NCBI GenBank assembly: GCA_937892155.1
Contig: CALAUG010000021.1
Span: forward strand, 13,653-77,652
DNA length: 64,000 nucleotides
Reading direction: 5' to 3'
Source: an uncultured Bacteroidales bacterium
GTDB taxonomy: Bacteria; Bacteroidota; Bacteroidia; Bacteroidales; UBA1715
In this document: in pieces, positions 12,678 through 26,483 of the stretch
How positions within the stretch are numbered: the stretch's first letter is position 1
How the letters are laid out: every line of letters begins with the position of its first letter
The notes under the pieces: model-generated
Database searches by the model: none
What the model saw: only the letters and a program-made list of their open reading frames with translations
Told to the model about the DNA's origin: nothing
Program-made: the position numbers and the translations under genes

Positions 12678-14150
12678 TTATTTCTTAGAATTTAAGTAAT
12701 CCATAATTCCTGCTGCTGCACGACGGCCGTCGCCCATTGCAAGAATAACTGTTGCACCACCACGAACAATATCACCACCTGCGAAAATGTCAGGAATGTT
12801 ACTTTGCATTGTTTCTTGGTTTACAACAATTGTACGTTTTGGAGACATTTCCAATCCTTGAACGCTATTAGGAATCAATGGGTTAGGAGATACACCAACA
12901 CTTACAACAACTAAATCAACATCAATGTCGTATTCTGAACCGGCTACAGCAACTGGTTTTCTACGTCCAGATGCATCAGGCTCGCCAAGTTCCATTTTTT
13001 GAACGCGAACTTTATTTACGTGTCCTTTTTCGTCAGCGAAGTATTCAATTGGGTTGTTCAAGCAAAGGAATTCTACGCCTTCTTGTTGTGCGTGGTGAAT
13101 TTCTTCTTTACGTGCTGGCATTTCGTCAAGAGAACGACGGTAAATAATCATTGCTCTTTCAGCACCAAGACGTTTTGCTGTTCTTACAGAGTCCATTGCT
13201 GTGTTACCACCACCGATAACGGCCACATTCTTTCCAAAGAATGTTGGAGTATCGTAATCTGGTTTTGCTGCGCTCATCAAGTTTACACGTGTTAAGTATT
13301 CGTTTGATGAAAGGATTCCGCAGTAGTTTTCACCTGGAATTTTCATAAAGTTAGGAAGACCGGCACCACTACTTACGAAGAATGCATTGAAACCTTCTTC
13401 ACGCAAATCGTCAATTGTAGCAGTATTTCCGACAACGAAATCTTTTACGAATTTTACGCCCATTTTTTCCAAGTTGTTGATTTCTACGTCAACAATGCTG
13501 TTTGGCAGACGGAATTCAGGAATACCATATTTCAATACACCGCCAATTTCGTGCAAAGCTTCGAATACGGTAACGTCGCATCCTGCTTTTGCCAAGTCAC
13601 CAGAACAAGCAAGACCGGCAGGTCCCGAACCGATAACGGCAACTTTGAATCCATTCTTTGGAGCAACTTCCGGCAATGACATTTTGCCTGATTCACGTTC
13701 GTAATCGGCAACAAAACGTTCCAAATTACCAATTGCAACAGCAGGTTTCTTCATCTTCAAGTATGTACATTGTGATTCACATTGTTTTTCTTGAGGACAA
13801 ACACGACCACAAACTGCAGGTAATGCACTTGTTTGTTTGATAACTTTGGCAGCGCCTAAGAAATCTTCATTTTCTATACATTTAATGAAACTAGGAATAT
13901 GGATACCAACAGGGCAACCGTCCATACAAGTAGGATTTGGGCAGTCCAAACATCTGTGTGATTCTTGAACAGCCATTTCCTTGGTAATACCCATATTTAC
14001 TTCCTTGTAGTTTTTGCTACGTTCTATAGGATCTTGTTCAGGCATAGAAATTCTTTCAATGTTGCCACGATCCTTTGCAGACATTTTTTTGCGTAATTCT
14101 TCACGCCATGCTTGTGCACGTTCTTCTTTTATTTGTTCTAAGTCCTTCAT
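12678..14150 (-). CDS. nfnB: NADH-dependent reduced ferredoxin:NADP+ oxidoreductase subunit B (GltD-like, 'homotetrameric glutamate synthase' family)
   Basis: Two Cys clusters (CLDCPNPTCMDGCP; CGRVCPQEKQCESQC) plus two Rossmann motifs (VAVIGSGPAGLA; VAVIGGGNTAMD). Paired with the NfnA-like gene directly upstream. Confidence 0.82.
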   Translation of the reverse strand: MKDLEQIKEERAQAWREELRKKMSAKDRGNIERISMPEQDPIERSKNYKEVNMGITKEMAVQESHRCLDCPNPTCMDGCPVGIHIPSFIKCIENEDFLGAAKVIKQTSALPAVCGRVCPQEKQCESQCTYLKMKKPAVAIGNLERFVADYERESGKMSLPEVAPKNGFKVAVIGSGPAGLACSGDLAKAGCDVTVFEALHEIGGVLKYGIPEFRLPNSIVDVEINNLEKMGVKFVKDFVVGNTATIDDLREEGFNAFFVSSGAGLPNFMKIPGENYCGILSSNEYLTRVNLMSAAKPDYDTPTFFGKNVAVIGGGNTAMDSVRTAKRLGAERAMIIYRRSLDEMPARKEEIHHAQQEGVEFLCLNNPIEYFADEKGHVNKVRVQKMELGEPDASGRRKPVAVAGSEYDIDVDLVVVSVGVSPNPLIPNSVQGLEMSPKRTIVVNQETMQSNIPDIFAGGDIVRGGATVILAMGDGRRAAAGIMDYLNSKK

Positions 14151-14159
14151 AACGCAAAT

Positions 14160-14987
14160 TTATTTAGTAGTCTGTGAATATTTTTCGAATGCTTCTTTTT
14201 CCTCAGCTTTGTAAGCGCCCATACGCATCATCATTTCGCCGAAATCAACTTTGTGTGCATCGAATTCTGGACCATCAACGCAAACGAATTTTGTTTGACC
14301 GTCAACAGAAACACGACAAGCACCGCACATACCAGTTCCGTCAACCATAATGGTATTCAAACTTACATACGTTGGAATATCATATTCTTTTGTTTTTAGC
14401 GCTGCGAATTTCATCATGATGGCAGGACCGATAGCCATACAGAAATCGATTTTCTCTTTCTTAATAGCTTTTTCCATACCAACGGTAACAACGCCTTGTT
14501 CTCCGTAAGAACCATCGTCAGTCATAATGATTACTTCGTCGGATGCCTTGCGGATTTCGTCTTCAAGAATAATCAAATCTTTGGTACGAGCAGCCAAAAC
14601 GGAAATTACTTTATTTCCAGCAGCTTTCATTGCCTGAACGATTGGCAATAGGGGAGCAACGCCAACACCACCGCCGCAACAAAGAACTGTACCGAATTTT
14701 TCAATGTGAGTTGCTTTTCCAAGTGGACCAACAACATCGTGCAAATATTCGCCCGGATTAAGCGAAGCAACTTTGCTACTAGTAACACCAACTTTTTGAA
14801 GAATCAACGTGATTGTTCCTTTTTCGATGTTGGCACTAGAAATCGTAAGCGGAATACGTTCGCCTTTTTCGTCAACACGGACGATTACGAAGTGACCGGC
14901 TTTTCTTTTTTTCGCGATTTGAGGAGCTTCAACTTCAAGCTCTACAACAAGTTCGGAAAGAAATTTTTTGTTAACTATCTTATTCAT
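14160..14987 (-). CDS. nfnA: NfnA-type ferredoxin-NADP+ reductase subunit (sulfide/dihydroorotate dehydrogenase-like FAD/NAD-binding protein)
   Basis: FNR-like fold (GHFVIVRVDEKGERIPLTI; GGGVGVAP) and C-terminal 2Fe-2S motif GTGMCGACRV. Track start is TTG 15011; trimmed to ATG 14987. Confidence 0.82.
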   Translation of the reverse strand: MNKIVNKKFLSELVVELEVEAPQIAKKRKAGHFVIVRVDEKGERIPLTISSANIEKGTITLILQKVGVTSSKVASLNPGEYLHDVVGPLGKATHIEKFGTVLCCGGGVGVAPLLPIVQAMKAAGNKVISVLAARTKDLIILEDEIRKASDEVIIMTDDGSYGEQGVVTVGMEKAIKKEKIDFCMAIGPAIMMKFAALKTKEYDIPTYVSLNTIMVDGTGMCGACRVSVDGQTKFVCVDGPEFDAHKVDFGEMMMRMGAYKAEEKEAFEKYSQTTK

Positions 14988-15208
14988 TAGTTTTTGCTTT
15001 AAGTCCCGCAAAATTACAATTATTCGCTGGAAATCAAAAGAATTGGATAAAAAGATGTTGTATTTATTTGTCGTTGGAGTAGAAGAAATATTTTAGTCCG
15101 TCAATTTGTCTTATTCGTCTGCTTTGGAAGATAAAAGGAGGGGAGTGCTCTTGCCTTATTTTCTTTATAGTTGTAGGTTGGTATTTGTTAAAAGAGTCAT
15201 TTGAAACA

Positions 15209-15242
15209 ATAAAAAAGGCAACTCATAAATGGGTTGCCTTTG
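15209..15242 (-). terminator. Rho-independent terminator after the ion-channel gene (end of the 11-gene block)
   Basis: aaaggcaac (15214-15222) pairs with gttgccttt (15233-15241) around a 10-nt loop. The minus-strand RNA reads hairpin + TTTTTTATTG. Confidence 0.75.
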
Positions 15243-15267
15243 GTAAATGAGTTTTGCGATTCTTTTT

Positions 15268-16089
15268 TTAATCATTTTTTTTCCTATCCTCTTCGTCGAT
15301 GGCTATTTGATAGTTGTTTATAACGGCACCAGTAACTAAGTTCAAAAGTAAAAATGCAGCTAAACAAAACCATGTTACATGATAGGTTGTAATAACAGCT
15401 GAACTTGTATTAATTAATCCATATTCTGATGCTGTGATTTGGTTATATCTTATATCAGTCCAATCTTCTCCGGTTAGTTCTCTAAATAGTGTAAAAACAG
15501 CTTCTCCTAAATCACCAAACGGATCTGGTGCATTTGCTGGTGCGTTCGGCGCTTTTTCTATGTACAATTCGTAATTTTTTAGTTTTTCATTCTCTAATGT
15601 TGTAGGGTCTGGCAATCGGAACATGTAGACTCCAGCAATGGCGTATAAGTAAACAAAAATTAAAAAAAGTATAAGATTGTAAAACATTGATGTTAATGAT
15701 TTCATCAATACTGTTACAATAAGTTTTATCTCTTTCGAAGTTCGAAGAAGTCGCAATATTCTAAATACACGCAATACACGTAATGCAGTCATCATGGAAG
15801 CATTCGCAAATAGTGTTTCGGGAATATAGCCGATTATGACTAATGTTAAATCGAATACATTCCATCCATCACAAAAAAATTTTTTTATGCTTTCGGCTGC
15901 AATAAATCGTAGAGATATTTCAATTGTAAAAATATATAAGATGACTTCCTGAATTGTACTAATTATGTGGTTGTCTGTAAAAGTTTCGACGCCAATTAAA
16001 ATGGAATTTACAATGATTATTCCTACTATGAATAGTTCAAATATCTTATTGCTCGCAATTAAAGTTGCTGTGTTTTTCAGATTGCTCAT
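15268..16089 (-). CDS. voltage-gated cation channel, BacNav/NaChBac-like single 6TM domain
   Basis: S4 LRVLRVFRILRLLR has Arg at every third residue. Pore helix/filter is FTLFRELTGEDWTDI. Six TM segments, 273 aa. Confidence 0.85.
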   Translation of the reverse strand: MSNLKNTATLIASNKIFELFIVGIIIVNSILIGVETFTDNHIISTIQEVILYIFTIEISLRFIAAESIKKFFCDGWNVFDLTLVIIGYIPETLFANASMMTALRVLRVFRILRLLRTSKEIKLIVTVLMKSLTSMFYNLILFLIFVYLYAIAGVYMFRLPDPTTLENEKLKNYELYIEKAPNAPANAPDPFGDLGEAVFTLFRELTGEDWTDIRYNQITASEYGLINTSSAVITTYHVTWFCLAAFLLLNLVTGAVINNYQIAIDEEDRKKND

Positions 16090-16179: not shown

Positions 16180-16524
16180 CTACATATTTGCTTTTACTAC
16201 AGAATAAATAGAAATTATAAATATTAAAAATAGAACTCCGTTTATTATAATATACGGAGGTACTGTAAACTTGAAAAAAGCTATTATCAGATTTGATATA
16301 AAAAACAATACGCAAAAGATAGCAGCAATAAGTTTTGAGTTAACTGCAGTACCTTGTCTTTCAAAAGAAACGCCGAGACACATGATAGATGAGCAAGCTA
16401 ACATGAAAAAACTTCCTATACCAAGGAGGACAAAATTTTCACTATTTGTTATAGATACAAAAAGATAAGCAAAAAGTGCACTTAAGGCTACTGCTACTAG
16501 TGTTAAAATAGGATTTATCTTCAT
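16180..16524 (-). CDS. hypothetical 4-TM membrane protein
   Basis: 114 aa with four hydrophobic helices. ATG start 6 nt after the stop of the upstream GYF_2 gene. Confidence 0.6.
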   Translation of the reverse strand: MKINPILTLVAVALSALFAYLFVSITNSENFVLLGIGSFFMLACSSIMCLGVSFERQGTAVNSKLIAAIFCVLFFISNLIIAFFKFTVPPYIIINGVLFLIFIISIYSVVKANM

Positions 16525-16530
16525 AGTTTA

Positions 16531-16872
16531 TTATTTATCAAATGGCGGGGGCATCAGTGCCACTAATTTTAATATTTCAGGTAATTGTTCTGCAGTTTTC
16601 CAGTTCGTAAAGCCGGGTTTCCAGATGTAGGAATCCTTCGTTACTTGTTTGTTTGCAATAAGGTTTGATAATTCTTGTTCTGATATTGGACCAACTTGTT
16701 TATTATCAATTATTACATAATAAAATTGCTGGGATTGTAGTGGGTTCATTACACCAGGTACTTGCATGTTTTGCATTGCATAATTCATAGTTTGAACCAT
16801 TTGGCGAGCCATTGCTAAGCCCATGCCAAACTCCACTAATCGATCAATTGAGAAAAAACTGTCTTCATTCAT
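16531..16872 (-). CDS. GYF_2 (DUF4339) domain protein with proline tail
   Basis: FYYVIIDNKQVGPISEQELSNLIANKQVTKDSYIWKPGFTNWKTAEQLPEL matches the bacterial GYF_2 pattern (G-P...W..G...W). Ends in MPPPFDK. Confidence 0.7.
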   Translation of the reverse strand: MNEDSFFSIDRLVEFGMGLAMARQMVQTMNYAMQNMQVPGVMNPLQSQQFYYVIIDNKQVGPISEQELSNLIANKQVTKDSYIWKPGFTNWKTAEQLPEILKLVALMPPPFDK

Positions 16873-16881
16873 ATTTATATA

Positions 16882-17076
16882 TTATAATCCGATTAGACCC
16901 TTTATAAAATTCCAAATTCCTTCTTTTGCTTTGTCCTTAGTTTCGGTAACGAATTCGGATTCATTTATTTTTTCTTTGATGTTGTTCTTAACATCGCTTT
17001 TAATGTCATCAACGATGCCAGATTTTTTTATTGCTTCAACAACAGCTTGTTGTGTATCTATATCTTGTGTACTCAT
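16882..17076 (-). CDS. small charged/amphipathic hypothetical protein (64 aa)
   Basis: ATG start, 9-nt gap to the next gene. Lys/Asp/Glu-rich helix ending in a hydrophobic WNFIKGLIGL. No family recognised. Confidence 0.5.
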   Translation of the reverse strand: MSTQDIDTQQAVVEAIKKSGIVDDIKSDVKNNIKEKINESEFVTETKDKAKEGIWNFIKGLIGL

Positions 17077-17092
17077 TGTCTTATTTTTTTTA

Positions 17093-17118
17093 AAACGGCA
17101 GGAATGACCCTGCCGTTT
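17093..17118 (-). other. GC-rich intra-operon stem-loop (weak attenuator, terminator or processing site)
   Basis: Perfect 10-bp stem aaacggcagg / cctgccgttt with a 6-nt loop, lying between the 96-aa and 64-aa genes. On the minus strand it is followed by only about 4 U, then an A-run. Confidence 0.5.
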
Positions 17119-17125
17119 AATTTAA

Positions 17126-17416
17126 TTAAGCTGTAACCATGCTATAAATGTTCCATGCAGCCCATGCAAAATCGACGATGGCCCATTTTATAGTTGTTTT
17201 TGTCTTTAATGGTTTTACCGTGAAAATCAATATTGCCAATGCTAATGTTGCAATGGTGATAAACCAAATGGCAGTTTCAGCACCAGAAAACATCGTAGAT
17301 AAATTTCCACTTGTTATGGCTTTATAGCAAAGGAAAAAGTAAACGGCAATTAATACTATTTCAATAATTGAAACTATTAATCCAGCTTTGATATTTTTTT
17401 TTGTTGATTCTTCCAT
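17126..17416 (-). CDS. hypothetical 3-TM membrane protein
   Basis: 96 aa with three hydrophobic helices. 17-nt gap from the upstream lipoprotein gene. Confidence 0.6.
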   Translation of the reverse strand: MEESTKKNIKAGLIVSIIEIVLIAVYFFLCYKAITSGNLSTMFSGAETAIWFITIATLALAILIFTVKPLKTKTTIKWAIVDFAWAAWNIYSMVTA

Positions 17417-17433
17417 AATTGTGTAGAATGAGA

Positions 17434-17859
17434 TTATTTCATAGAATTCATCATGTCTAATGCTGCACCAGCAGCTTTCATAGCATCTTCAGGATCGTCT
17501 GAATAAGCTGCTTTAGCAGCTTTACTATATGCGTCTACAGCTTTTTTTGAGGTTTCAAGAGCTTTTTTTACATCCTCATCTTCAGTAGCTTCATCCAATG
17601 TTTTTTTTGCAGATGATACAGCATCATTGATTGCATTGGATGCTTCGTCAACTACATCTGATGTAGCATCTTCCATTGCATCAACAGCTCCAGATGTAGC
17701 GTCTTTCATTGCATCAACAGCTTCTGATGTCGCTGATTTCATTTCTTCTACTGCTGCAGAATACTCGTCTTTTGAATCTTTTGTGTTTGAAGAAGATTCA
17801 CCTGAACATGCAAACATGAATGCTGCACATACAGGAATTAATAATAATGTTTTTTTCAT
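17434..17859 (-). CDS. lipoprotein with 11-residue amphipathic repeats
   Basis: MKKTLLLIPVCAAFMFACSGE (lipobox MFAC). 33-nt coding repeats at about 17657-17755 encode AVDAMKDATSG / AVDAMEDATSD / VVDEASNAIND. Confidence 0.7.
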   Translation of the reverse strand: MKKTLLLIPVCAAFMFACSGESSSNTKDSKDEYSAAVEEMKSATSEAVDAMKDATSGAVDAMEDATSDVVDEASNAINDAVSSAKKTLDEATEDEDVKKALETSKKAVDAYSKAAKAAYSDDPEDAMKAAGAALDMMNSMK

Positions 17860-17930
17860 AAAAATAAATATTTATAAATGCCTACTCTGTTATGGATTTT
17901 CGGTATCCTCCATTTCATATTATTTAATTC

Positions 17931-19268
17931 TTACATTGCTGGTGGTGGAGGAGGGACAGCCCCAAATAATTGAGATAATTCTTGAACATTACCAGCAAGT
18001 TCCCAATTTGCCATACCTTGTTTCCAAACATATGTGTTGGTTGTTAATTGTCCATTTTGTACCATTTGTGCAAGTTGTTGCATATTATATGGACCTGAAT
18101 TTTGACCATTAATAGAAACATTGTATTGTACTTGAGGTGGAGCGGGAGGGGTATTCATTGCCTGATTCATGTTTTGTCCCATGTTATTCATCATGCCTGC
18201 CATTTGCTGACCCATAGCTCCTCCCATCATCATTCCGGTCATCATTCCAGCAGGATTCATTCCGCCGCCGTTGCCACCATTCATGCTGCCCATTTGACCA
18301 AGGTTGCTTGCTGCAGTCTGTAGTACATTTGTTTGTTGATCAAGAGCATGTGCCCCCATAAAGTTGGTTTCCGTTTGCAAGCGTTGTGCACGTTGAGCTT
18401 CTTCTCTTTGAATACGTAAGGTCTCTTCCATGTTTTGAGCATTGATATTTTGCATATCCTGTGCATTTTTTATGTTGAGATCTGTTTGTGCACTAATTGT
18501 TTTTGCTTGTTGCTCTGCTGTTACTTTACGAAGTTCTGCATAACCGTCACTTTCCTTGTCTGGCTCAATTGTTGCCAAATCAAAACCTTTCATGTTTACA
18601 CCAAAATCAGATTCTAATCTTGGTTTTAGATGTTGTGCTATGATTTCGTTTATATCAAGGATTTTCCTTTCCATTTGGAGAACAGGAATACCATTGTCAG
18701 CTGGAATGTTAGTGATGACACCCTTTACATATTTAATAACTGCATCTTTTACTTGTGTCTTGAATTCTTCCAATTCAAAGTTTATTAAACGATGAAGTTT
18801 TATGAATGCTTTATAATCTGTGATATTAAATGTGATGGTGCCTCGCGCAGACATAGGAACTGCAAAATCTAAAAATCTTGGATCAAATACATCAAAATAT
18901 GGTACGGCAAATTTTATTTGTATTATACCAGATAGGTTAATGTAATAGATTTCTGCTTGGAATGGTGTGGCGCCTCCAAAAGCTAATCCAACGATACCGG
19001 AAAGAATAGGAAAGTTTGCTGTTTTTATTGTGTCGTCGTATGGTCCTACAATAAAATCCTGCATAGAACCATCTTTTTGTTTGTACACGAATACAGCGAC
19101 TTCTCCATCTTTAACTCTCAGACTACTACCAAAACGTATAGAATTTTCTTTGTTAGTTGAATTTAAATCAGCACCTGCAGGACGCCATTTCCATACTAGA
19201 TATTCCGCTTCATCACAGCGGATGACATCCATCAATCCACCTTCTTTTCCTTTACTAAATAAACCCAT
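17931..19268 (-). CDS. SPFH/Band-7 family protein of the YdjI ('virion core protein-like', COG4260) type, with low-complexity linker and C-terminal GYF_2 domain
   Basis: The N-terminal 250 aa (MGLFSKGKEGGLMDVIRCDE..YLVWKW...GS.L.V...E.AVF) match the YdjI-type SPFH pattern. Then a coiled coil, an M/G/N/Q-rich tract, GYF_2 (GPYNMQQL...YVWKQGMANW) and a PPPPPAM tail. Confidence 0.82.
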   Translation of the reverse strand: MGLFSKGKEGGLMDVIRCDEAEYLVWKWRPAGADLNSTNKENSIRFGSSLRVKDGEVAVFVYKQKDGSMQDFIVGPYDDTIKTANFPILSGIVGLAFGGATPFQAEIYYINLSGIIQIKFAVPYFDVFDPRFLDFAVPMSARGTITFNITDYKAFIKLHRLINFELEEFKTQVKDAVIKYVKGVITNIPADNGIPVLQMERKILDINEIIAQHLKPRLESDFGVNMKGFDLATIEPDKESDGYAELRKVTAEQQAKTISAQTDLNIKNAQDMQNINAQNMEETLRIQREEAQRAQRLQTETNFMGAHALDQQTNVLQTAASNLGQMGSMNGGNGGGMNPAGMMTGMMMGGAMGQQMAGMMNNMGQNMNQAMNTPPAPPQVQYNVSINGQNSGPYNMQQLAQMVQNGQLTTNTYVWKQGMANWELAGNVQELSQLFGAVPPPPPAM

Positions 19269-19286
19269 TTTCTTACGTGTTATAGA

Positions 19287-20360
19287 TTAAAGAATATCGT
19301 TGTTAACAGCATCTATGCCTTTTTTGATTAAAATGGCAAAAACACAGACTCCTACAAATCCAAGTGTTGCAAGTCCACCAGAAACAATACAACCAATTAT
19401 GAAAATTATAAATGATACTCCCAAGCCAATACCTCTCCAGCTTTTGAATACTGATAATATCTTTTCTTTTTTTGCGTTTTTTTCTGCTTGGAGCTCAGCT
19501 TCAATCTTTCCGTGTAATTCTTGTGGAATTTTTGTGAATCGTTTGTAGTTTTTGGGTAATCTTTTCATTAATGAGATAACCGTGTTTGTTGCTTGCTCAA
19601 GAAATGTTTTGTCGTTTCCTGACATCATAACAATCTTTTGATAGACTTGGTCTGCTTTTTGAATCCAAACTTCCTCTTCCTTGCCAATCACACCATCGTT
19701 ATCATAAGCGTTACTAGTAGCCATTGCTAATAGTTCTAACAAATCCTCTTTGGTATTTGGGACAGGGAAGTTCTTTATCACATTGGCTTTCTCGGCCATT
19801 ATCTTTCTCTCAATTTCTTTAGACTGTTCGTTTAGTTGTCTCATCAAATCTTCACGTTCCTCATCTTGTCTTTCTTTTTTACTACCATTGCCGAAAATAT
19901 CTACAGCGGCATTTAATACACCACTTCCGCTATTATGTCTGGCCGATAGTTCGTTAAGACTTTGTGTTTTTACTTTTTCAAAATCTGCAAGTTCTTTCGA
20001 CTTTTTCATTTCTATTTGTTGCAGCATTTCAAAAAGTTGATTTGCACTTTTGACAGACTCAATACCTTTAAATTCGAAACCACATTCTGGACATTTTGAT
20101 TGGAAACCAGATATTGGTGCACCGCAAGCTGGACATTTTTGCACAACACCATATTTGTTTGACTGTGGGTTTTGTGCAGGTTTCTCAGCTTCTTTCTTTT
20201 TGTTCATTTCAAAAATTCGAGAGTTCAAAACCATCTCAAATTCGTCTTTGTCAATGCCGAAAGCTTCTGCTTTCTTTATCAGAACGTTTTTTTCACTATC
20301 AGTGACTTCTCCATCTGCTAGAGCGGCGGAAATCAAATTTTCAAGTTCTTCGTTATACAT
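19287..20360 (-). CDS. TerB-like N-terminal motif / double zinc-ribbon / C-terminal TM-hairpin protein
   Basis: ALADGEVTDSEKNVLIKKAEAFGIDKDEFEMVL (TerB-like ADG-x-E helix pair). CPACG...CPECG at aa 76-93. Long helical middle. C-terminal GIGLGVSFIIFIIGCIVSGGLATLGFVGVCVFAILI. Confidence 0.7.
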   Translation of the reverse strand: MYNEELENLISAALADGEVTDSEKNVLIKKAEAFGIDKDEFEMVLNSRIFEMNKKKEAEKPAQNPQSNKYGVVQKCPACGAPISGFQSKCPECGFEFKGIESVKSANQLFEMLQQIEMKKSKELADFEKVKTQSLNELSARHNSGSGVLNAAVDIFGNGSKKERQDEEREDLMRQLNEQSKEIERKIMAEKANVIKNFPVPNTKEDLLELLAMATSNAYDNDGVIGKEEEVWIQKADQVYQKIVMMSGNDKTFLEQATNTVISLMKRLPKNYKRFTKIPQELHGKIEAELQAEKNAKKEKILSVFKSWRGIGLGVSFIIFIIGCIVSGGLATLGFVGVCVFAILIKKGIDAVNNDIL

Positions 20361-20409: not shown

Positions 20410-21345
20410 TTACTCTTCTACCACTTCTCCTTTTTTGTTGATAATTACATCCTTATCATTAAGCTCTACCTGTGCTTTACCATCTTTGAAATCCTCTGCA
20501 TCTTCATAAATGGCTGGTAAAACGATGTTGCCTTTTGTGTCCATGTAGCCAAAGGTATCTTTATCGTCATCTTTAAAAGCAAGCATACCATCTTTTACGC
20601 AGGAATATCTATATTTTGTTGGCAAGGCGCATATGGTTTCCCCTTTGGTGTTTATTAATTTGAGATGTTCATCTTTTGTTTCAACAATTGCAAATCCTTC
20701 ACTAAAATCATCTGCATCTTCAAATTGGAATGAAATACTTATTTCTCCATTTTTGTTTATGTATCCAAATTCTCCATTGTTGTTTGCTACGGTGGCAAGA
20801 CCATCTTTTGTGAAAGATCCGGCATGTTTAAATGTCATATCAAATTTAGTGTCCCCTTTGGTATCAATGTAACTATAAATCCATTCGTCTGTCGTTCTAA
20901 CAACTGCAAAGCCTTCAACAAAATCTTCCGCATCGTAGTATTTACAATCAATAGCTATTTCGCCTTGATGATTGATGTACCCATATCTTGTGTTCATATA
21001 TGATGGTTTTGTTGTGTCTGTAATCTCAACTCTTATGAGAGCAAGTCCATTCGAAAAATTTTGTATGGATTTTAATTTATAGCCCTTGAAATCCATATTA
21101 TCTACAAACCATGGTAATACTTCTTCACCTTTAGTGTTGATGAATGTGCAGCTGTCATATCCTTCAGCTCTGACCATTGCGAGACCATCGGAGAAATCGC
21201 CAATGCCACGATATTGTGTACTTAGTTTATTGTAAACTTTTTCACCCAAAACGTCTTTGGGAGCTCCTTCTTGTAGTGATGAACTACAAGAACAAAAGAA
21301 TAAACCGCTAATTAATACAGAAAGTGTTAATATATTTTTTTTCAT
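20410..21345 (-). CDS. WG-repeat (KWG) lipoprotein
   Basis: Signal/lipobox LFFCSC. Repeated YGYINxxGExxIxxxYxDAxDFxEGFAxV units are typical of WG-containing repeats. Confidence 0.8.
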   Translation of the reverse strand: MKKNILTLSVLISGLFFCSCSSSLQEGAPKDVLGEKVYNKLSTQYRGIGDFSDGLAMVRAEGYDSCTFINTKGEEVLPWFVDNMDFKGYKLKSIQNFSNGLALIRVEITDTTKPSYMNTRYGYINHQGEIAIDCKYYDAEDFVEGFAVVRTTDEWIYSYIDTKGDTKFDMTFKHAGSFTKDGLATVANNNGEFGYINKNGEISISFQFEDADDFSEGFAIVETKDEHLKLINTKGETICALPTKYRYSCVKDGMLAFKDDDKDTFGYMDTKGNIVLPAIYEDAEDFKDGKAQVELNDKDVIINKKGEVVEE

Positions 21346-22193: not shown

Positions 22194-23546
22194 ATGAAAC
22201 GTAAGATTTATAGTGAATTGCTCAATTGGAAGCAAAAATATAATGGAGAAGTGGCAATTCTTGTCGACGGTGCTCGTCGTATTGGCAAGAGTTTTATAGT
22301 TGAGGAATTTGCCCAAAAAGAGTATAAATCGTACGTGCTTTTTGATTTTGGAAAAGTGGGCGAGGGTATAAAAAATTTGTTTGAAAATTATCTAGATAAA
22401 TTAGATGTTTTTTTTCAATATGTTTCATTGGAAACTGGTGTGAAATTGTACGAACGGAACACGGTTTTTATTTTCGATGAGGTTCAAAATTATCCCAAAG
22501 CTCGTGCCGCTATCAAATATCTTGTTGCCGATGGTCGGTACGATTACATAGAAACTGGCTCGTTGGTAAGCATTAACAAAAATGTGAAAGATATTATCAT
22601 TCCGTCGGAAGAACGACGAATTGATATGTATCCAATGGATTTTGAGGAATTTCTTTGGGCAATGGGGAACGACAATCTGATGGATTTTATTCGTGATTGC
22701 TTTGCAAATAAACGTCCTCTTGGAAATTCGTTGCATAGAAAAGCAATGGAATATTTTCGTCAGTATATGATTGTTGGCGGTATGCCTCAAGCTGTGGAAA
22801 AATACATAAAGACTCGTGATTTTGTTGAGGTGGATAAGATAAAACGTGACATTTTAAAATTGTATCGTAATGATATAAGTAAATATGCAACAGGTGTGGA
22901 AGCAAAAGTTACTGGCATTTATGATAAACTTGCTTCACAGTTGCAGCGACACGAAAAGCGTTTTAAGTTGAGCGACGTTCGTACAGGTGGAAAAATGCGG
23001 GATTTTCAAACTTCTTTTTTTTGGTTGAGCGAATCTCGTGTAGTAAATATTTGTTATAAGTCAACGGAGCCAAGTATTGGTTTGGAACTAAAGTTGGACG
23101 ATAGTACAATAAAATTGTATATGGCAGACACAGGTTTGCTCATTTCTCATGCATTTAGCGAAGCGCAAATAACAAATAATCAATTATATAAAAAGTTGAT
23201 GCTCGATAAGTTGGAGATTAACAAAGGTATGCTTGTGGAGAATGTTGTTGCTCAAATGCTTGTGGCAGGAGGTCATAAGTTGTTTTTCTATTCAAATGCA
23301 ACGCGTGAAAGCGTTGACGATAGGATGGAAATTGATTTTTTGATAGCTAAACCAGTTATAACCAATCGTCATAATATTTCGCCTATAGAAGTGAAGTCAA
23401 GTAGTAACTATACGTTAACATCATTAGAAAAGTGCATAAAAAAATACAATGCGTACTTAGCAACGCCGTATGTGATTCATTCTGCTGATTTAGAAGAAAA
23501 AAATGGCATATTGTACTTGCCGTTGTATATGACACCATTGTTGTAG
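22194..23546 (+). CDS. AAA-family ATPase with DUF4143-type C-terminal domain (COG1373-like)
   Basis: Walker A GARRIGKS and Walker B FIFDEVQ. 450 aa, with the C-terminal EIDFL...PIEVKSS motif typical of DUF4143 (restriction-endonuclease-like) modules. Confidence 0.82.
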   Translation: MKRKIYSELLNWKQKYNGEVAILVDGARRIGKSFIVEEFAQKEYKSYVLFDFGKVGEGIKNLFENYLDKLDVFFQYVSLETGVKLYERNTVFIFDEVQNYPKARAAIKYLVADGRYDYIETGSLVSINKNVKDIIIPSEERRIDMYPMDFEEFLWAMGNDNLMDFIRDCFANKRPLGNSLHRKAMEYFRQYMIVGGMPQAVEKYIKTRDFVEVDKIKRDILKLYRNDISKYATGVEAKVTGIYDKLASQLQRHEKRFKLSDVRTGGKMRDFQTSFFWLSESRVVNICYKSTEPSIGLELKLDDSTIKLYMADTGLLISHAFSEAQITNNQLYKKLMLDKLEINKGMLVENVVAQMLVAGGHKLFFYSNATRESVDDRMEIDFLIAKPVITNRHNISPIEVKSSSNYTLTSLEKCIKKYNAYLATPYVIHSADLEEKNGILYLPLYMTPLL

Positions 23547-23742: not shown

Positions 23743-25224
23743 CTAGTATAGTGGTAAGTTTTGCATATACTTTTGAAATTTTGTTTCGCATTGCAAGTAT
23801 ATTGCATTGACGTCTTCTCTAGCCTGTATGTCTGATAGTAATTCTTGACTTTGTAATATTTCACGAACGGAAAGCCTAAATTGCGTTATGTCGGTGAGGG
23901 CTTCGTCTTGGGTTGTGTATTTGTTATTCTTTAAGTTGTTGAGAATTGGTGCCGCAAGTTGTTCTATTTTTTGTTTGAATTTATTTGTCTTGTCGTTTTC
24001 TGCCTTTTGTGGCAAAAATTTTAGAGCATGGATGCTTCTGCATTCCTCGGCGTATTTCTGTTGGATAGAAATAAGCGCATTGCTGTAGTCGTGATAGTGT
24101 GGATCGCTCGCAGAAACTTCTTTGAGTAATTCCATTCGTTTGCTATATGTTTCGGTGAGACATTTTGTGAGTAATGAATCGGATTCGTGAAAGGAAGTTG
24201 CCGTTGGTAGTTTTGCAAGGATAGGTTCTGCAATATTTCGCATTGCTACATCTGCTTTGTTTATTTTTTCTTGTAAATCTATTGGTAATCTATTATCATT
24301 TCTAGTGTTTCGTTGTTCTAATTTTTGAACAGTGTCGACTTGTTTAATAACAATTGTATCGCTTTTTTGAATGACAATTGTATCTGACGTTTTTGTGTCT
24401 ATTGTTGGTGCTTCTGGTCTTTGTTTGTGAGAATGTGTAAAAAAAATAGATGCAAGACCTATGATAATAATACAGAAAGCAATAATGGTTATTGGTTTGC
24501 GTAATTCAATGCGATGAATGATTTCATTGGCATTGTTGAATCGTTTTTCTTTATAAGTTTTGGTACATTTTTGTTTTATGAAATAGTACCGATGTGGAAA
24601 TATAAGGTTGAGTAGTTTTCCGAAAGCATAAATATCGCAACGTAAATCTACATCCTTTGTTTCGTCGAGTTGCTCGGGTGCTGCATAACCATCGCTGCCA
24701 GCAGCTTGTTTGAAGATTGCGTATGTGTCGGAGTCGGAGAGTCCGAAGTCTATGATTTTTACATTGTTGCCCTTACGTGTTATGAGTATGTTTTGTGGTT
24801 TTAGGTCGCGATGAATAATTTGCATGGAATGGAAATAACTCATCGCCGACAAAATCTCTATGCAAATTCGTTTTTTTGTTCTTCGAGATGGATTTGTCGC
24901 TAAGAATTCGGCAAGTGTCCAACCATCAACGTATTCCATAGTGAAACAAAGTCCAAATTTCTCGTTGTTCTCGAGCGAAATGGCGCGGACAATATTTGGA
25001 TGTTCCAGTTGGATTTCGAGTTCAAATTCTTTCTTAAGAAATTCTTTGTATGTGGTCAATTCGGCATATTCGGGTTGCAACCCTTTCAAAAAGAACCATT
25101 TCCCGAACCGCTTAACTTTACAGAGAGAATAAAATCCTTTATTGCTGACTTCGCCGTATTCGCTTGTCTTGAATACGTTTGACGGGTCGTTTACTATGAA
25201 TCCAGAATTTGAATTGTTTTCCAT
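23743..25224 (-). CDS. membrane-anchored Ser/Thr protein kinase, paralog 1 (two C-terminal helical modules)
   Basis: HRDLKPQNILI, DFGLS and YAAPE motifs. TM helix PITIIAFCIIIIGLASIFF follows the kinase domain. Start trimmed to ATG 25224 (MENNSNSGF), which aligns with the paralog start. Confidence 0.85.
   Translation of the reverse strand: MENNSNSGFIVNDPSNVFKTSEYGEVSNKGFYSLCKVKRFGKWFFLKGLQPEYAELTTYKEFLKKEFELEIQLEHPNIVRAISLENNEKFGLCFTMEYVDGWTLAEFLATNPSRRTKKRICIEILSAMSYFHSMQIIHRDLKPQNILITRKGNNVKIIDFGLSDSDTYAIFKQAAGSDGYAAPEQLDETKDVDLRCDIYAFGKLLNLIFPHRYYFIKQKCTKTYKEKRFNNANEIIHRIELRKPITIIAFCIIIIGLASIFFTHSHKQRPEAPTIDTKTSDTIVIQKSDTIVIKQVDTVQKLEQRNTRNDNRLPIDLQEKINKADVAMRNIAEPILAKLPTATSFHESDSLLTKCLTETYSKRMELLKEVSASDPHYHDYSNALISIQQKYAEECRSIHALKFLPQKAENDKTNKFKQKIEQLAAPILNNLKNNKYTTQDEALTDITQFRLSVREILQSQELLSDIQAREDVNAIYLQCETKFQKYMQNLPLY
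24556..25095. repeat. 540-bp perfect direct repeat, copy A (kinase catalytic core)
   Basis: Identical base-for-base to 25815-26354 (offset 1259 bp) in the end regions and interior lines I aligned by hand; the encoded proteins are identical across the block. Flanking sequence stays homologous but diverged. Confidence 0.9.
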
Positions 25225-25268
25225 ACAACAAAAATAATGGAAAATTGTTTGTTTTTCTCTAATCAACT

Positions 25269-26483
25269 TCAATATGTTGGTGCGGTGAAATCTATTAAAC
25301 TTGCACACTTATCAACATACTTTTGTTGAATGGTATTGATGATGTTGGAGTAGTTGTAGTAGTCGGGTGATTCCGTGGAAATGTTTTTGAGTAATTCCAC
25401 TCGTTTTTCGTATGATTCGGCAAGAAACTTCGAATACAATTGTAATGCCTCTTCCTGTGTTACATTTGTATCCTGCAATTTCGCAATTATAGGTTTTGCA
25501 ATTTCGTCAAATTCTTTATTGGCGTTGTCTATTATTTTTTGTTGTGTATCAGTTTTTCTGTTTGTGGGTGTGTTATTTTGTGAATTGGTCGAATAAATTG
25601 TGTCAATTTGTTTAATGACAATTGTGTCGTGTTGGTGGATAAAAATTGTGTCAAAAGTTTGTTTTACGGTTTGTTGTAATTCGGTGTTTTGTCTTGTCCC
25701 TAATATTAAAAACCAACCGAGTGATAAGAATAGTAAACAGATAGGAATAATGAGGCTACGAATACGAATTTGAGTCAATATCTCATCGGCAATTTTGTAA
25801 CGTTGTTCTTTATCAGTTTTGGTACATTTTTGTTTTATGAAATAGTACCGATGTGGAAATATAAGGTTGAGTAGTTTTCCGAAAGCATAAATATCGCAAC
25901 GTAAATCTACATCCTTTGTTTCGTCGAGTTGCTCGGGTGCTGCATAACCATCGCTGCCAGCAGCTTGTTTGAAGATTGCGTATGTGTCGGAGTCGGAGAG
26001 TCCGAAGTCTATGATTTTTACATTGTTGCCCTTACGTGTTATGAGTATGTTTTGTGGTTTTAGGTCGCGATGAATAATTTGCATGGAATGGAAATAACTC
26101 ATCGCCGACAAAATCTCTATGCAAATTCGTTTTTTTGTTCTTCGAGATGGATTTGTCGCTAAGAATTCGGCAAGTGTCCAACCATCAACGTATTCCATAG
26201 TGAAACAAAGTCCAAATTTCTCGTTGTTCTCGAGCGAAATGGCGCGGACAATATTTGGATGTTCCAGTTGGATTTCGAGTTCAAATTCTTTCTTAAGAAA
26301 TTCTTTGTATGTGGTCAATTCGGCATATTCGGGTTGCAACCCTTTCAAAAAGAAACATTTCCCGAAACGTTTAACTTTACAGAGGCAATAGATCCCTTTG
26401 TCAATAATATCTCCATATTCGCTTGTTTTGAATAGATTAAGCGAATCGTTTACTATGAATCCAGAATTTGAATTGTCTGCCAT
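25269..26483 (-). CDS. membrane-anchored Ser/Thr protein kinase, paralog 2 (one C-terminal helical module)
   Basis: Same kinase motifs as paralog 1. TM helix LIIPICLLFLSLGWFLILG. Start trimmed to ATG 26483 (MADNSNSGF). Confidence 0.85.
   Translation of the reverse strand: MADNSNSGFIVNDSLNLFKTSEYGDIIDKGIYCLCKVKRFGKCFFLKGLQPEYAELTTYKEFLKKEFELEIQLEHPNIVRAISLENNEKFGLCFTMEYVDGWTLAEFLATNPSRRTKKRICIEILSAMSYFHSMQIIHRDLKPQNILITRKGNNVKIIDFGLSDSDTYAIFKQAAGSDGYAAPEQLDETKDVDLRCDIYAFGKLLNLIFPHRYYFIKQKCTKTDKEQRYKIADEILTQIRIRSLIIPICLLFLSLGWFLILGTRQNTELQQTVKQTFDTIFIHQHDTIVIKQIDTIYSTNSQNNTPTNRKTDTQQKIIDNANKEFDEIAKPIIAKLQDTNVTQEEALQLYSKFLAESYEKRVELLKNISTESPDYYNYSNIINTIQQKYVDKCASLIDFTAPTY
25815..26354. repeat. 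540-bp perfect direct repeat, copy B
   Basis: Identical to 24556-25095. First mismatches at both ends were checked by hand alignment. Confidence 0.9.

What the first reader, a model, noticed from the sequence alone, without database searches (positions are those of the whole stretch)
15268..16089. BacNav-like channel with a Cav-like TGEDWTD selectivity filter, an expanded turret and no C-terminal coiled coil
Seen: S4 has five Arg at every third position (LRVLRVFRILRLLR, nt 15742-15780). The pore filter is T-G-E-D-W-T-D (nt 15454-15474), where NaChBac/NavAb-type channels have TLESW(A/S)x. The string LTGEDW matches the domain II pore loop of eukaryotic Cav channels as I remember it. The S5-P turret is long and carries a NAP repeat (KAPNAPANAPDPFGD). 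Only about 15 residues follow S6, so the C-terminal neck/coiled coil that stabilises BacNav tetramers is missing. Established knowledge: adding acidic residues at the positions equivalent to NavAb 178 and 181 (both Asp here) was part of the engineering of the Ca-selective CavAb. From memory, however, a natural homolog with a very similar TLEDWTD-type filter was reported to remain Na-selective with Ca block, so selectivity cannot be read off the sequence. Inference: this is a candidate native Ca-permeable or Ca-modulated prokaryotic channel in a Bacteroidota genome, genetically linked to an SPFH scaffold.
Basis: partly seen in the sequence, partly recalled or inferred. Interest (0 to 1): 0.6.

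Follow-up and report, generated by a model that had tools for sequence, protein, structure and literature searches.

The report
Gut-bacterial voltage-gated channel, Cav-like filter
This gene encodes a small voltage-gated cation channel from a previously undescribed branch of the bacterial sodium-channel superfamily, common in gut Bacteroidales, whose pore filter (TGEDWTD) matches part of animal calcium channels and probably binds calcium strongly, though whether it conducts or is blocked by calcium needs electrophysiology.

Summary
ORF 15268-16089 (-) encodes a 273-aa Ion_trans protein. It has five S4 arginines, the filter TGEDWTD, a turret about 27 residues longer than NavAb's, and only 12 residues after S6.

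It is not a one-off. It belongs to a distinct clade (bootstrap 97) of single-domain prokaryotic channels with consensus LTGEDWTD. The clade is separate from canonical BacNavs and from AnclNavs (CavMr, NavPp), and it does not nest among eukaryotic four-domain channels.

The gut subclade occurs in at least 225 species genomes of Bacteroidales and Akkermansia-like bacteria. All examined members keep the voltage sensor, the turret length and G207/D209/W210/D212. None has the coiled coil seen in all 28 reference BacNavs.

Selectivity cannot be read from sequence. Published work shows that EDWTD gives a Ca-blocked Na channel in NavPp, and that Leu-to-Gly at filter position 2 adds divalent block to NavAb. 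I therefore favour a divalent-modulated cation channel. A Ca-selective channel remains possible.

The SPFH link is real but facultative. A TerB/Zn-ribbon, SPFH-GYF, GYF and 4-TM cassette lies next to the channel in 14 of 81 species loci. The reverse test gives about 15%.

Verdict: a new variant of a known kind, and a good experimental candidate.

The parts
15268..16089 (-). Coding sequence of the 273-aa single-domain voltage-gated cation channel (stop codon included).
   Evidence: ORF list and translation. Pfam Ion_trans E 9.6e-43. AlphaFold2 model with mean pLDDT 85.6 and S0-S6 plus P1/P2 helices. Foldseek top matches are NavAb, NaChBac, CavAb and NavMs.
15742..15783 (-). S4 voltage-sensor helix LRVLRVFRILRLLR, with R104, R107, R110, R113 and R116.
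   Evidence: All five Arg are invariant in 80 orthologs, as are the charge-transfer residues F54 (79 of 80), E57 and D80 and the S1 residue N28.
15511..15618 (-). Expanded S5-P1 turret (aa 158-193): an extra helix at 168-179, then the Pro-rich loop APNAPANAPDPFGD.
   Evidence: Secondary structure from the model. It aligns as an insertion relative to BacNav and AnclNav. Its length is invariant (48 residues from the S5 motif to the filter) in the gut clade, and P181, P184, D189, P190 and G192 are conserved.
15454..15474 (-). Selectivity filter T206-G207-E208-D209-W210-T211-D212.
   Evidence: G207, D209, W210 and D212 are invariant and position 208 is E or D in 80 orthologs. This is partly circular because one retrieval pattern contained the motif. 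The same consensus appears in the unbiased HMMER representatives.
15403..15453 (-). P2 helix and the lengthened P2-S6 loop (aa 213-229, IRYNQITASEYGLINTS).
   Evidence: The filter-to-S6 spacing is invariant in the gut clade.
15271..15306 (-). Short charged C-terminal tail IAIDEEDRKKND; no neck and no coiled coil.
   Evidence: Heptad and tail-length comparison with 28 reference channels and 83 gut-clade loci.
15208..15241 (-). Terminator-like hairpin plus U-run, 27 nt downstream of the channel stop codon.
   Evidence: RNA fold -12.2 kcal/mol, z -2.76. The loop is too long for the consensus scan, so one search does not list it.
16180..16524 (-). 114-aa protein with four hydrophobic segments (TM114), 90 nt upstream of the channel on the same strand. 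Member of the recurrent cassette.
   Evidence: No Pfam family. Next to the channel in 12 of 81 species loci. Present in 51 of 80 SPFH loci from metagenomes.
16531..16872 (-). 113-aa GYF_2-domain protein (GYF113), cassette member.
   Evidence: Pfam GYF_2 E 3.5e-17. Found in 13 of 81 channel loci.
17931..19268 (-). 445-aa soluble SPFH (Band_7_1) protein with a Gly/Met/Asn-rich linker and a C-terminal GYF_2 domain. Core of the cassette.
   Evidence: Pfam Band_7_1 E 2.4e-21 and GYF_2 E 8.8e-18. Found in 10-13 of 81 channel loci. At least 506 related loci in metagenomes.
19287..20360 (-). 357-aa protein with an N-terminal TerB-like motif, a zinc ribbon and a C-terminal membrane anchor. Cassette member.
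   Evidence: Pfam TerB 23.8 bits, just under the 24.4 cut-off (E 5.9e-5), and Zn_ribbon_3. Found in 13 of 81 channel loci.
16882..17859 (-). Three small, poorly conserved co-directional ORFs (64 aa; 96-aa membrane protein; 141-aa lipoprotein-like protein) and a strong hairpin at 17093-17118 that may split the cluster into two transcripts.
   Evidence: The hairpin folds at -18.4 kcal/mol, z -6.3. Only the 96-aa ORF recurs, in 4 loci.

Best explanation
The gene encodes one subunit of a homotetrameric, depolarisation-gated cation channel of the bacterial Nav/Cav (BacNav) superfamily.

Shown:
- It has a complete voltage sensor: five S4 arginines and an intact charge-transfer centre.
- It has the P1-filter-P2 pore module.
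- It has an S6 with the conserved Asn and a Gly hinge.
- It belongs to a separate clade with consensus filter LTGEDWTD. That clade is closest to, but outside, the ancestor-like BacNavs (AnclNavs).
- Within the clade, the gut Bacteroidales branch gained a roughly 27-residue turret with an extra helix and lost the cytoplasmic neck and coiled coil.

Inferred:
- Four copies of E208, D209 and D212 give 12 acidic side chains in the filter.
- Gly207 opens a water-filled cavity under the filter.
- Together these make a pore that binds divalent cations strongly.
- My committed guess is NavPp-like behaviour: monovalent (Na+) current that external Ca2+ blocks or modulates in the millimolar range, with some Ca2+ permeation, rather than a highly Ca2+-selective pore.
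- The tetramer is held together by the pore domain and perhaps the enlarged extracellular loops, not by a C-terminal bundle.

In this genome the channel is the last gene of a co-directional cluster that encodes a soluble SPFH-GYF protein and its putative membrane partners. This suggests, but does not show, a role in a membrane-stress or ion-homeostasis module.
For: Family and fold:
- Pfam Ion_trans.
- AlphaFold2 model with pLDDT 85.6 and the expected helices.
- Foldseek top hits are NavAb, NaChBac, CavAb, NavMs and CatSper.

Voltage sensor:
- R104/107/110/113/116, E57, D80 and N28 are invariant in 80 orthologs, and F54 is conserved in 79 of 80.

Clade:
- In a neighbour-joining tree of 109 sequences, the 25 TG-type channels are monophyletic (bootstrap 97).
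- All prokaryotic one-domain channels separate from eukaryotic domains (bootstrap 100).
- The query scores 314 bits against a profile of distant TG members, 185 against AnclNav and 138 against canonical BacNav.
- The consensus FTLFRxLTGEDWTDLRYN holds down to 40% identity.

Divalent interaction:
- NavPp (TLEDWTD) has PCa/PNa 0.31 with Ca block.
- NavPp mutants carrying CavAb-like filters stay blocked.
- NavAb L176G, the same Leu-to-Gly change at filter position 2, creates a cavity where hydrated Ca2+ stalls and roughly halves Na current at 40 mM Ca.
- Like AnclNavs and unlike NavAb/NaChBac, the query lacks the one-residue insertion after filter position 7.

No coiled coil.

Context.
Against: - No electrophysiology exists for any member of this clade.
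- The same EDWTD filter placed in the CavMr background gives PCa/PNa 13.8. Acidic residues at positions 4 and 7 make NavAb and NaChBac Ca-selective. A Ca-selective outcome is therefore quite possible.
- The weakly supported nearest AnclNavs, from T. turnerae and H. elongata (TFEDWTD), gave no current when expressed.
- The tree uses neighbour-joining with simple distances, and its deep nodes are poorly supported (bootstrap 13-32).
- Tetramer formation without a C-terminal bundle is assumed, not modelled.
- The cassette is absent from 67 of 81 species loci, including the closest relative.
Confidence: 0.55

Rival explanations
1. It is a native, highly Ca2+-selective homotetrameric channel, a natural counterpart of CavAb. 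E208, D209 and D212 would form the high-affinity Ca2+ sites, and depolarisation would drive Ca2+ entry as a signal.
For: - Positions 3, 4 and 7 are acidic, as in the engineered Ca-selective filters TLDDWSD (CavAb) and TLEDWAD (NaChBac).
- An Asp next to the filter Glu is universal in domain II of eukaryotic Cav channels, whose string LTGEDW is identical.
- The 'beacon' scheme assigns Asp at this site to Ca-selective or Ca-blocked channels.
- CavMr carrying the NavPp filter still prefers Ca (PCa/PNa 13.8).
Against: - In the AnclNav backbone, which is the closest characterised one, EDWTD and its CavAb-like variants give Ca block rather than Ca permeation.
- High Ca selectivity there needs Gly at position 4, not Asp.
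- Gly at position 2 promoted block in NavAb and did not give Ca permeation.
Confidence: 0.3
2. The protein does not work as a free-standing channel. It needs the SPFH/GYF/TerB-like cassette proteins or another partner for assembly or gating, replacing the lost coiled coil. Alternatively it serves mainly as a voltage or divalent sensor for that membrane-stress module.
For: - The cassette is the only recurrent neighbour, in 14 of 81 loci. It appears in several orders and orientations and is scattered over the channel tree.
- In the reverse test, 4 of about 25 informative SPFH loci carry a TG channel.
- The cluster is tight and co-directional here.
- A distant relative, P0132, has a TerB domain fused to its C-terminus at 29.8 bits against a cut-off of 24.4.
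- The nearest AnclNavs were silent when expressed alone.
- B. subtilis YdjG/H/I is a precedent for a Zn-ribbon membrane protein that recruits a soluble SPFH protein under membrane stress.
Against: - Most genomes with the channel, including the closest relative and all Alistipes and Akkermansia branches, have no cassette within 8 kb.
- The cassette is widespread without any channel.
- The TerB match of the window protein is below threshold, and pairwise similarity to the fused domains is not significant.
- No PspA gene is present in the cluster.
- From memory, truncated NavAb lacking its C-terminal domain is functional; PDB entries for NavAb residues 1-226 and 1-239 do exist.
Confidence: 0.1
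3. The gene is of eukaryotic origin: contamination, or recent transfer of one Cav domain. On this view the LTGEDW identity and the long extracellular loops reflect descent from a four-domain channel.
For: - PDB sequence hits that span the whole protein are eukaryotic Cav3, Cav1 and Nav domains, while BacNav hits stop after S5.
- The filter string is identical to Cav domain II.
Against: - The prokaryotic one-domain channels, including this clade, separate from eukaryotic domains with bootstrap 100.
- The strongest single-domain sequence match, over the VSD and S5, is to BacNavs (NavRh 87 bits, against 61 bits for the best single Cav3.1 domain).
- The gene sits in bacterial operon context in at least 80 bacterial genomes, and its GC content tracks the host from 31% to 60%.
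- Basal clade members have TLEDWTD, short turrets and coiled coils, like AnclNavs.
Confidence: 0.02

Closest known systems
NavPp (Plesiocystis pacifica), an ancestor-like BacNav (AnclNav) from Shimomura et al. 2020, eLife (PMC7041947)
   Same: - Single-domain six-transmembrane (6TM) channel.
- Filter positions 3-7 (EDWTD) are identical.
- No one-residue insertion after position 7.
- Lengthened P2-S6 loop.
- AnclNav is the second-best profile match for the query (185 bits).
   Different: - Position 2 is Gly, not Leu.
- About 27 extra residues in the turret.
- No Cys pair in the P2-S6 loop.
- No neck or coiled coil.
- Falls in a separate clade (bootstrap 97).
CavMr (Meiothermus ruber), the only native prokaryotic Cav described (TLEGWVD)
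   Same: Same superfamily, AnclNav-like pore scaffold and Asp at position 7.
   Different: CavMr needs Gly at position 4 and Val at 6 for Ca selectivity. This protein has Asp and Thr there, which is the combination that lowered Ca selectivity in CavMr (G4D gives PCa/PNa 7.7).
NavAb L176G (PDB 8HA1/8HA2) and CavAb (TLDDWSD), engineered NavAb variants
   Same: - Gly at filter position 2, as in L176G.
- Asp at positions 4 and 7, as in CavAb.
- Same fold; both appear among the Foldseek matches.
   Different: - These are laboratory mutants of a canonical BacNav that has a short turret and a coiled coil.
- Here the features are natural, combined and conserved across a clade.
- The backbone is AnclNav-like, and in that backbone CavAb-type filters did not give Ca permeation.
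Domain II of eukaryotic Cav1/Cav2 channels (…FQ(I/V)LTGEDW(N/T)…)
   Same: - Identical LTGEDW string.
- Long S5-P and P-S6 extracellular loops.
- Five S4 arginines.
   Different: - One domain of 273 aa, not one of four domains in a protein of about 2000 aa.
- Four identical filters (12 acidic residues) instead of an asymmetric EEEE+D ring.
- Groups with prokaryotic channels in the tree.
NaChBac / Bacillus-group BacNavs
   Same: - S6 end NLxxGxxxNN with the glycine hinge.
- Similar length.
- Second-ranked Foldseek hit, 6vwx.
   Different: The filter is TLESWAS, the turret is short, and a coiled coil is present.
B. subtilis YdjG-YdjH-YdjI (SamGHI) SPFH module, for the neighbouring cassette only
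   Same: A soluble SPFH/band-7 protein with a low-complexity C-terminal part, encoded beside a zinc-ribbon membrane protein and another small membrane protein.
   Different: - No pspA gene here.
- The SPFH protein ends in a GYF_2 domain rather than a zinc finger.
- An extra GYF_2 protein and a TerB-like motif are present.
- Homology between the membrane partners was not tested.

Membership tests
BacNav superfamily (prokaryotic single-domain voltage-gated Na/Ca channels) | One 6TM domain: an S1-S4 voltage sensor plus an S5-P1-filter-P2-S6 pore. | tested here: met
   Pfam Ion_trans E 9.6e-43. The model shows all helices at pLDDT 85.6. Foldseek top hits are NavAb, NaChBac and NavMs.
BacNav superfamily (prokaryotic single-domain voltage-gated Na/Ca channels) | S4 with Arg at every third position, and conserved counter-charges and hydrophobic plug in S1-S3. 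| tested here: met
   R104/107/110/113/116, E57, D80 and N28 are invariant in 80 orthologs, and F54 is conserved in 79 of 80.
BacNav superfamily (prokaryotic single-domain voltage-gated Na/Ca channels) | Filter T-x-(E/D)-x-W with the Trp in register. | tested here: met
   Profile alignment places W210 under the conserved Trp.
BacNav superfamily (prokaryotic single-domain voltage-gated Na/Ca channels) | Cytoplasmic neck plus four-helix coiled coil after S6. | tested here: not met
   There are 17 residues after the S6 hinge and no heptad window, against 40-86 residues with heptad score 0.6-1.0 in all 28 references. None of 83 gut-clade loci reaches 0.8.
BacNav superfamily (prokaryotic single-domain voltage-gated Na/Ca channels) | Homotetramer that gives a voltage-gated cation current. 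| not testable with these tools
   Needs expression and patch clamp. The structure tool returns no coordinates, so a tetramer could not be assessed.
AnclNav group (Shimomura 2020) | Falls inside the AnclNav clade. | tested here: not met
   The TG clade is monophyletic (bootstrap 97) and lies outside the 17 AnclNavs sampled. A sister link to the T. turnerae and H. elongata channels has bootstrap 32 only. Profile scores are 314 bits for TG and 185 for AnclNav.
AnclNav group (Shimomura 2020) | Filter T-(L/F)-E-(D/G)-W-x-(D/E). | tested here: inconclusive
   Positions 1 and 3-7 fit and are identical to NavPp. Position 2 is Gly, which is absent from all reference AnclNavs.
Ca2+-selective prokaryotic channels (CavMr, CavAb) | PCa/PNa much greater than 1. 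| not testable with these tools
   Sequence does not decide this. The same filter gave PCa/PNa 0.31 in NavPp and 13.8 in CavMr.
Ca2+-selective prokaryotic channels (CavMr, CavAb) | CavMr-type determinant: Gly at filter position 4. | tested here: not met
   Position 4 is Asp209, invariant in the clade.
Eukaryotic four-domain Cav channels | Four linked homologous domains, and descent within the eukaryotic domain tree. | tested here: not met
   It is a single domain of 273 aa. Prokaryotic one-domain channels split from eukaryotic domains with bootstrap 100.
YdjGHI/PspA-type SPFH membrane-stress module (neighbouring cassette) | A soluble SPFH protein encoded with a zinc-ribbon membrane protein and a second membrane protein. 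| tested here: met
   Band_7_1 protein without a TM segment, a Zn-ribbon plus TM protein, and a 4-TM protein.
YdjGHI/PspA-type SPFH membrane-stress module (neighbouring cassette) | A PspA/IM30 gene in the operon. | tested here: not met
   None of the nine cluster ORFs hits a PspA family in Pfam or NCBIfam.

The most novel reading that the evidence does not exclude
Gut Bacteroidales, and Akkermansia-like bacteria by gene transfer, would have a native homotetrameric channel with the Cav domain II filter that admits Ca2+ on depolarisation. In a subset of genomes it would be wired to a TerB-like/SPFH/GYF membrane module. On this reading, loss of membrane potential, for example from envelope damage, is turned into a Ca2+ signal that recruits an SPFH-based repair or remodelling system. 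That would be a bacterial voltage-to-calcium signalling pathway in major gut commensals.
Probability: 0.1. Interest if true: 0.85.

Novelty: new variant of a known kind. Interest (0 to 1): 0.55.

Why it matters
Only one native prokaryotic calcium channel (CavMr) and one Ca-blocked relative (NavPp) have been characterised. Both come from a different clade.

This clade offers a small, fourfold-symmetric protein that naturally combines three features studied so far only one at a time in mutants:
- Gly at filter position 2;
- Asp next to the filter Glu, the 'beacon' residue of animal Cav domain II;
- Asp at position 7.

It could show whether the Cav domain II motif is enough for Ca selectivity in a symmetric pore. 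It is also a natural test of whether BacNav tetramers need the C-terminal bundle.

The clade is abundant in human, mouse and ruminant gut Bacteroidales and is present in cultured Muribaculaceae isolates. Its physiology is therefore open to experiment and bears on ion and voltage signalling in the microbiome. The facultative link to an SPFH cassette recalls stomatin-family regulation of eukaryotic channels.

Tried and rejected
- **Eukaryotic origin.** Rejected by the tree, the genomic context and GC tracking.
- **Anti-phage defence role for the cluster.** No PADLOC family matched above noise.
- **Mobile-element carriage.** No phage hit. The only plasmid hits are distant BacNavs (under 31% identity) on Pseudoalteromonas and Ruegeria plasmid records of 0.68-0.9 Mb.
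- **A named NCBIfam family.** None found, only a 20-bit hit to a K-channel model.
- **'No conserved neighbourhood'.** This was my first conclusion from three loci. The 81-locus analysis overturned it.
- **Domain fusion as strong evidence for a TerB link.** Downgraded. The window protein is just below the Pfam cut-off, and BLASTP against the fused C-termini is not significant (E 0.26 and 2.9).
- **Concatenated-tetramer AlphaFold run.** Prepared but not submitted, because the tool returns no coordinates and would probably refuse the sequence.
- **First genome scan with the 26-sequence alignment.** It failed for lack of a conserved stretch. I repeated it with 9 sequences.
- **Literature searches.** Searches for TGEDWTD, or for BacNav together with Bacteroid*, found no description of this clade. 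One search was badly designed and uninformative.
- **The 'NAP repeat'.** It is not conserved as a repeat.
Full report
**1. The observation**

The minus-strand ORF 15268-16089 starts with ATG and encodes 273 residues. It matches Pfam Ion_trans at E 9.6e-43 over residues 14-262.

- S4 is LRVLRVFRILRLLR (aa 103-116, nt 15742-15783), with five Arg spaced by three.
- The filter TGEDWTD is aa 206-212, nt 15454-15474.
- The turret peptide KAPNAPANAPDPFGD is aa 179-193.
- Twelve residues follow ...INNYQ.

The gene is 32% G+C in a 38% window. A hairpin with a U-run follows it (-12.2 kcal/mol, z -2.8).

**2. Fold and register**

An AlphaFold2 model built on 26 homologs has mean pLDDT 85.6. Its helices are:

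| Element | Residues |
|---|---|
| S0 | 2-12 |
| S1 | 15-35 |
| S2 | 41-64 |
| S3 | 75-87 |
| S4 | 97-116 |
| S4-S5 linker + S5 | 119-157 |
| extra turret helix | 168-179 |
| P1 | 194-205 |
| P2 | 210-222 |
| S6 | 230-272 |

Foldseek against the PDB returns NavAb, NaChBac, CavAb, NavMs and a CatSper subunit first.

By sequence, BacNav structures align only over residues 11-164. Eukaryotic Cav and Nav domains align end to end. The reason is that eukaryotic domains also have long pore loops.

It also shows that this protein, like AnclNavs and eukaryotic domains, lacks the one-residue insertion that NavAb and NaChBac carry after filter position 7.

**3. It belongs to a large clade**

A word-indexed search found 1780 clusters at E below 1e-5. 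The best 120 are all at least 81% identical and come mostly from gut metagenomes.

An exhaustive HMMER search of 50%-identity representatives returned about 25 single-domain relatives at 33-57% identity among the best 150. Their consensus pore is FTLFRxLTGEDWTDLRYN.

I combined these with 28 reference BacNavs and AnclNavs taken from the Shimomura 2020 source data and with 56 domains cut from 14 four-domain channels. The neighbour-joining tree (235 columns, 100 bootstraps) gives:
- The 25 'TG' channels form one clade, bootstrap 97.
- All prokaryotic one-domain channels separate from eukaryotic domains, bootstrap 100.
- The nearest outgroup is the T. turnerae / H. elongata pair of AnclNavs, with weak support (bootstrap 32).

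A profile built only from distant TG members scores the query at 314 bits. The AnclNav profile gives 185 and the canonical BacNav profile 138. Reference channels score 144-196 against the TG profile.

Basal TG members have TLEDWTD, TCEDWTD or TGDDWTQ, a short turret and a heptad-patterned tail. The likely order of events is therefore an AnclNav-like ancestor, then Leu-to-Gly at position 2, then turret growth, then loss of the coiled coil in the gut branch.

The method is crude and the deep nodes are weak. The clade itself is robust.

**4. The gut branch**

A scan of one genome per species found 225 genomes with a relative, and 80 loci were fetched.
- They are Prevotella, Muribaculaceae (including two cultured isolates), Paludibacteraceae, Alistipes, Barnesiella and Bacteroides MAGs.
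- Nine are Akkermansia or Verrucomicrobiales MAGs. These nest inside the Bacteroidales part of the tree.
- Gene GC follows host GC from 31% to 60%. The gene is therefore long resident, and the Verrucomicrobia copies are best read as old transfers rather than contamination.

Across 80 orthologs at 57-87% identity:
- The five S4 Arg, E57, D80 and N28 are invariant, and F54 is conserved in 79 of 80.
- G207, D209, W210 and D212 are invariant, and position 208 is E or D.
- The turret and P2-S6 loop lengths are fixed.
- The Pro-rich motif xPxxPxNxPDPFG is conserved.

One retrieval pattern contained TGEDWTD, so filter invariance in this set is partly circular. The representative set is not biased in this way and agrees.

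The tail after the S6 hinge has a median of 25 residues (range 15-52), and no locus has a heptad score of 0.8 or more. All 28 references have 40-86 residues with scores of 0.6-1.0.

**5. What the filter implies**

Published data constrain the options but do not settle them.
- NavPp (TLEDWTD) conducts Na with PCa/PNa 0.31 and is blocked by external Ca.
- NavPp with the CavAb-type filters TLEDWSD or TLEDWAD remains blocked.
- The NavPp filter placed in CavMr gives a poorly selective channel with PCa/PNa 13.8.
- High Ca selectivity in this scaffold needs Gly at position 4.
- In canonical BacNavs, Asp at positions 4 and 7 does create Ca selectivity.
- The Asp beside the filter Glu is the conserved 'beacon' of Cav domain II.
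- Irie et al. 2023 showed that replacing the position-2 Leu of NavAb with Gly opens a cavity below the filter where hydrated Ca2+ lodges. This roughly halves Na current at 40 mM Ca (PDB 8HA1/8HA2).

The natural TGEDWTD filter combines all of these divalent-binding features on an AnclNav-like backbone. I therefore expect strong divalent interaction. My estimates are about 0.45-0.5 for NavPp-like block with partial Ca permeation, about 0.3 for true Ca selectivity, and the remainder for silence or partner dependence.

**6. Neighbourhood**

Nine co-directional ORFs with gaps of 6-90 nt precede the terminator hairpin:

| Coordinates | Product |
|---|---|
| 20410-21345 | WG-repeat lipoprotein |
| 19287-20360 | TerB-like + Zn-ribbon + membrane-anchor protein |
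| 17931-19268 | SPFH (Band_7_1)-GYF_2 protein |
| 16882-17859 | three small ORFs |
| 16531-16872 | GYF_2 protein |
| 16180-16524 | 4-TM protein |
| 15268-16089 | the channel |

A strong hairpin at 17093-17118 may divide the cluster.

My first look at three orthologous loci showed unrelated neighbours. An unbiased clustering of all flanking ORFs in 81 species loci changed that picture:
- The only recurrent neighbours are the TerB/Zn protein (13 loci), the GYF protein (13), the 4-TM protein (12) and the SPFH protein (10-13).
- Altogether 14 loci plus the window carry the cassette, or part of it, in five different orders and orientations.
- These loci are scattered over the Bacteroidales part of the channel tree and are absent from the Alistipes and Akkermansia branches.

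In the reverse test, the SPFH protein has at least 506 relatives in metagenomes from gut, freshwater and marine samples. Of the 80 fetched loci, 4 carry a TG channel just downstream, and about 25 had enough downstream sequence to be informative.

The cassette is thus an autonomous, widespread module, and the channel is a facultative companion, at about 15% in either direction. That is far above the sub-1% I would expect for two unlinked genes in a 3 Mb genome (my own rough figure). Shared ancestry inflates the observed count.

The cassette's architecture resembles B. subtilis YdjG/H/I, in which a Zn-ribbon membrane protein and a second membrane protein recruit a soluble SPFH protein during membrane stress. 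No PspA gene is present here.

A distant channel relative, P0132, carries a C-terminal TerB domain above the Pfam threshold. Another, P0129, has three ADGxIxxxE-type repeats. This hints at a channel-TerB connection, but pairwise similarity to the window protein is not significant.

**7. Comparison with what is known, and novelty**

The protein works like a BacNav or AnclNav channel and meets the fold, voltage-sensor and filter-register criteria.
- It fails the coiled-coil criterion.
- It falls outside the AnclNav clade.
- It has a position-2 residue not seen in the reference sets.

Public annotations call it 'ion transporter' or 'voltage-gated sodium channel'. NCBIfam has no model for it.

In the searchable literature, TGEDW occurs only as the eukaryotic Cav domain II motif and TGEDWTD never occurs. 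No paper links BacNavs with Bacteroid* in a relevant way. The library is incomplete, so prior description elsewhere cannot be excluded.

I rate it a new variant of a known kind.

**8. Verdict**

The case is somewhat stronger than stated, because this is a conserved, abundant clade and there is experimental precedent for the Gly. It is weaker in one respect, because the SPFH link is facultative.

Function beyond 'voltage-gated cation channel with a divalent-binding filter' remains inference until currents are recorded.

Noticed in passing
window 16180-20360 (minus strand); loci L086-L165: There is a conserved four-gene cassette: a TerB-like/Zn-ribbon membrane protein, an SPFH(Band_7_1)-GYF_2 protein, a small GYF_2 protein and a 4-TM protein. 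It is very widespread, with at least 506 metagenome loci from gut, freshwater and marine samples, mostly without any channel. It resembles B. subtilis YdjGHI/SamGHI but lacks PspA. It appears to be an uncharacterised Bacteroidota membrane module in its own right.
   Followed up: partly
window 17934-17963 and 16534-16557 (minus strand): Both GYF_2-domain proteins end in short proline runs just after the GYF domain (…GAVPPPPPAM and …LMPPPFDK). GYF domains bind proline-rich peptides in eukaryotes (from memory), so these tails could be self or mutual ligands that drive oligomerisation.
   Followed up: no
window 17093-17118: A strong palindromic hairpin (-18.4 kcal/mol, z -6.3) lies in the 49-nt gap between the 96-aa membrane ORF and the 64-aa ORF. 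It could be an internal terminator or attenuator that splits the cluster into two transcripts.
   Followed up: partly
L046, L052, L058, L060, L069, L074, L077-L079: Nine Akkermansia or Verrucomicrobiales gut MAGs carry the channel (57-59% identity, filter TGDDW(T/S)D). They nest within the Bacteroidales branches, and gene GC (44-60%) is close to the flank GC (51-62%). This looks like an old inter-phylum transfer among gut bacteria.
   Followed up: partly
proteins P0121, P0132, P0129, P0126, P0127 (representatives): The wider clade contains unusual architectures:
- P0121 has an extra N-terminal S1-S4-like module ahead of a complete channel.
- P0132 has a C-terminal TerB domain.
- P0129 has three C-terminal ADGxIxxxE repeats.
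- P0126 (marine Parvicellaceae, Tara Oceans) has a degenerate filter, TLGYEWW.
- P0127 joins a lipoprotein-like N-terminus to the pore half only, which may be an assembly or gene-call artefact.
   Followed up: no
window 12678-16089 compared with L001 8001-11295: The closest sequenced relative (GCA_024402335.1; channel 87%, gltD-like 91% and FAD/NAD-binding partner 92% identical) keeps the channel next to the same two downstream genes. Upstream it has a metallophosphatase and a 177-aa ORF instead of the SPFH cassette. A rearrangement breakpoint therefore lies at the channel's 5' side.
   Followed up: partly
window 20410-21345, 22194-23546, 23743-25308: Upstream of the cluster lie a WG-repeat lipoprotein, an AAA_14/DUF4143 ATPase on the opposite strand, and a 521-aa Ser/Thr protein kinase with a mid-protein hydrophobic segment. 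They did not recur near the channel, apart from the ATPase family in 4 loci.
   Followed up: no
window 12678-15011 (minus strand): Directly downstream of the channel terminator is a two-gene pair. One is a 283-aa FAD/NAD-binding ferredoxin-reductase-like protein and the other a 490-aa protein that, by inspection of its sequence, looks like a glutamate-synthase small chain (gltD-type) with Cys-rich Fe-S motifs. No family search was run on them. They are probably an unrelated redox enzyme.
   Followed up: no
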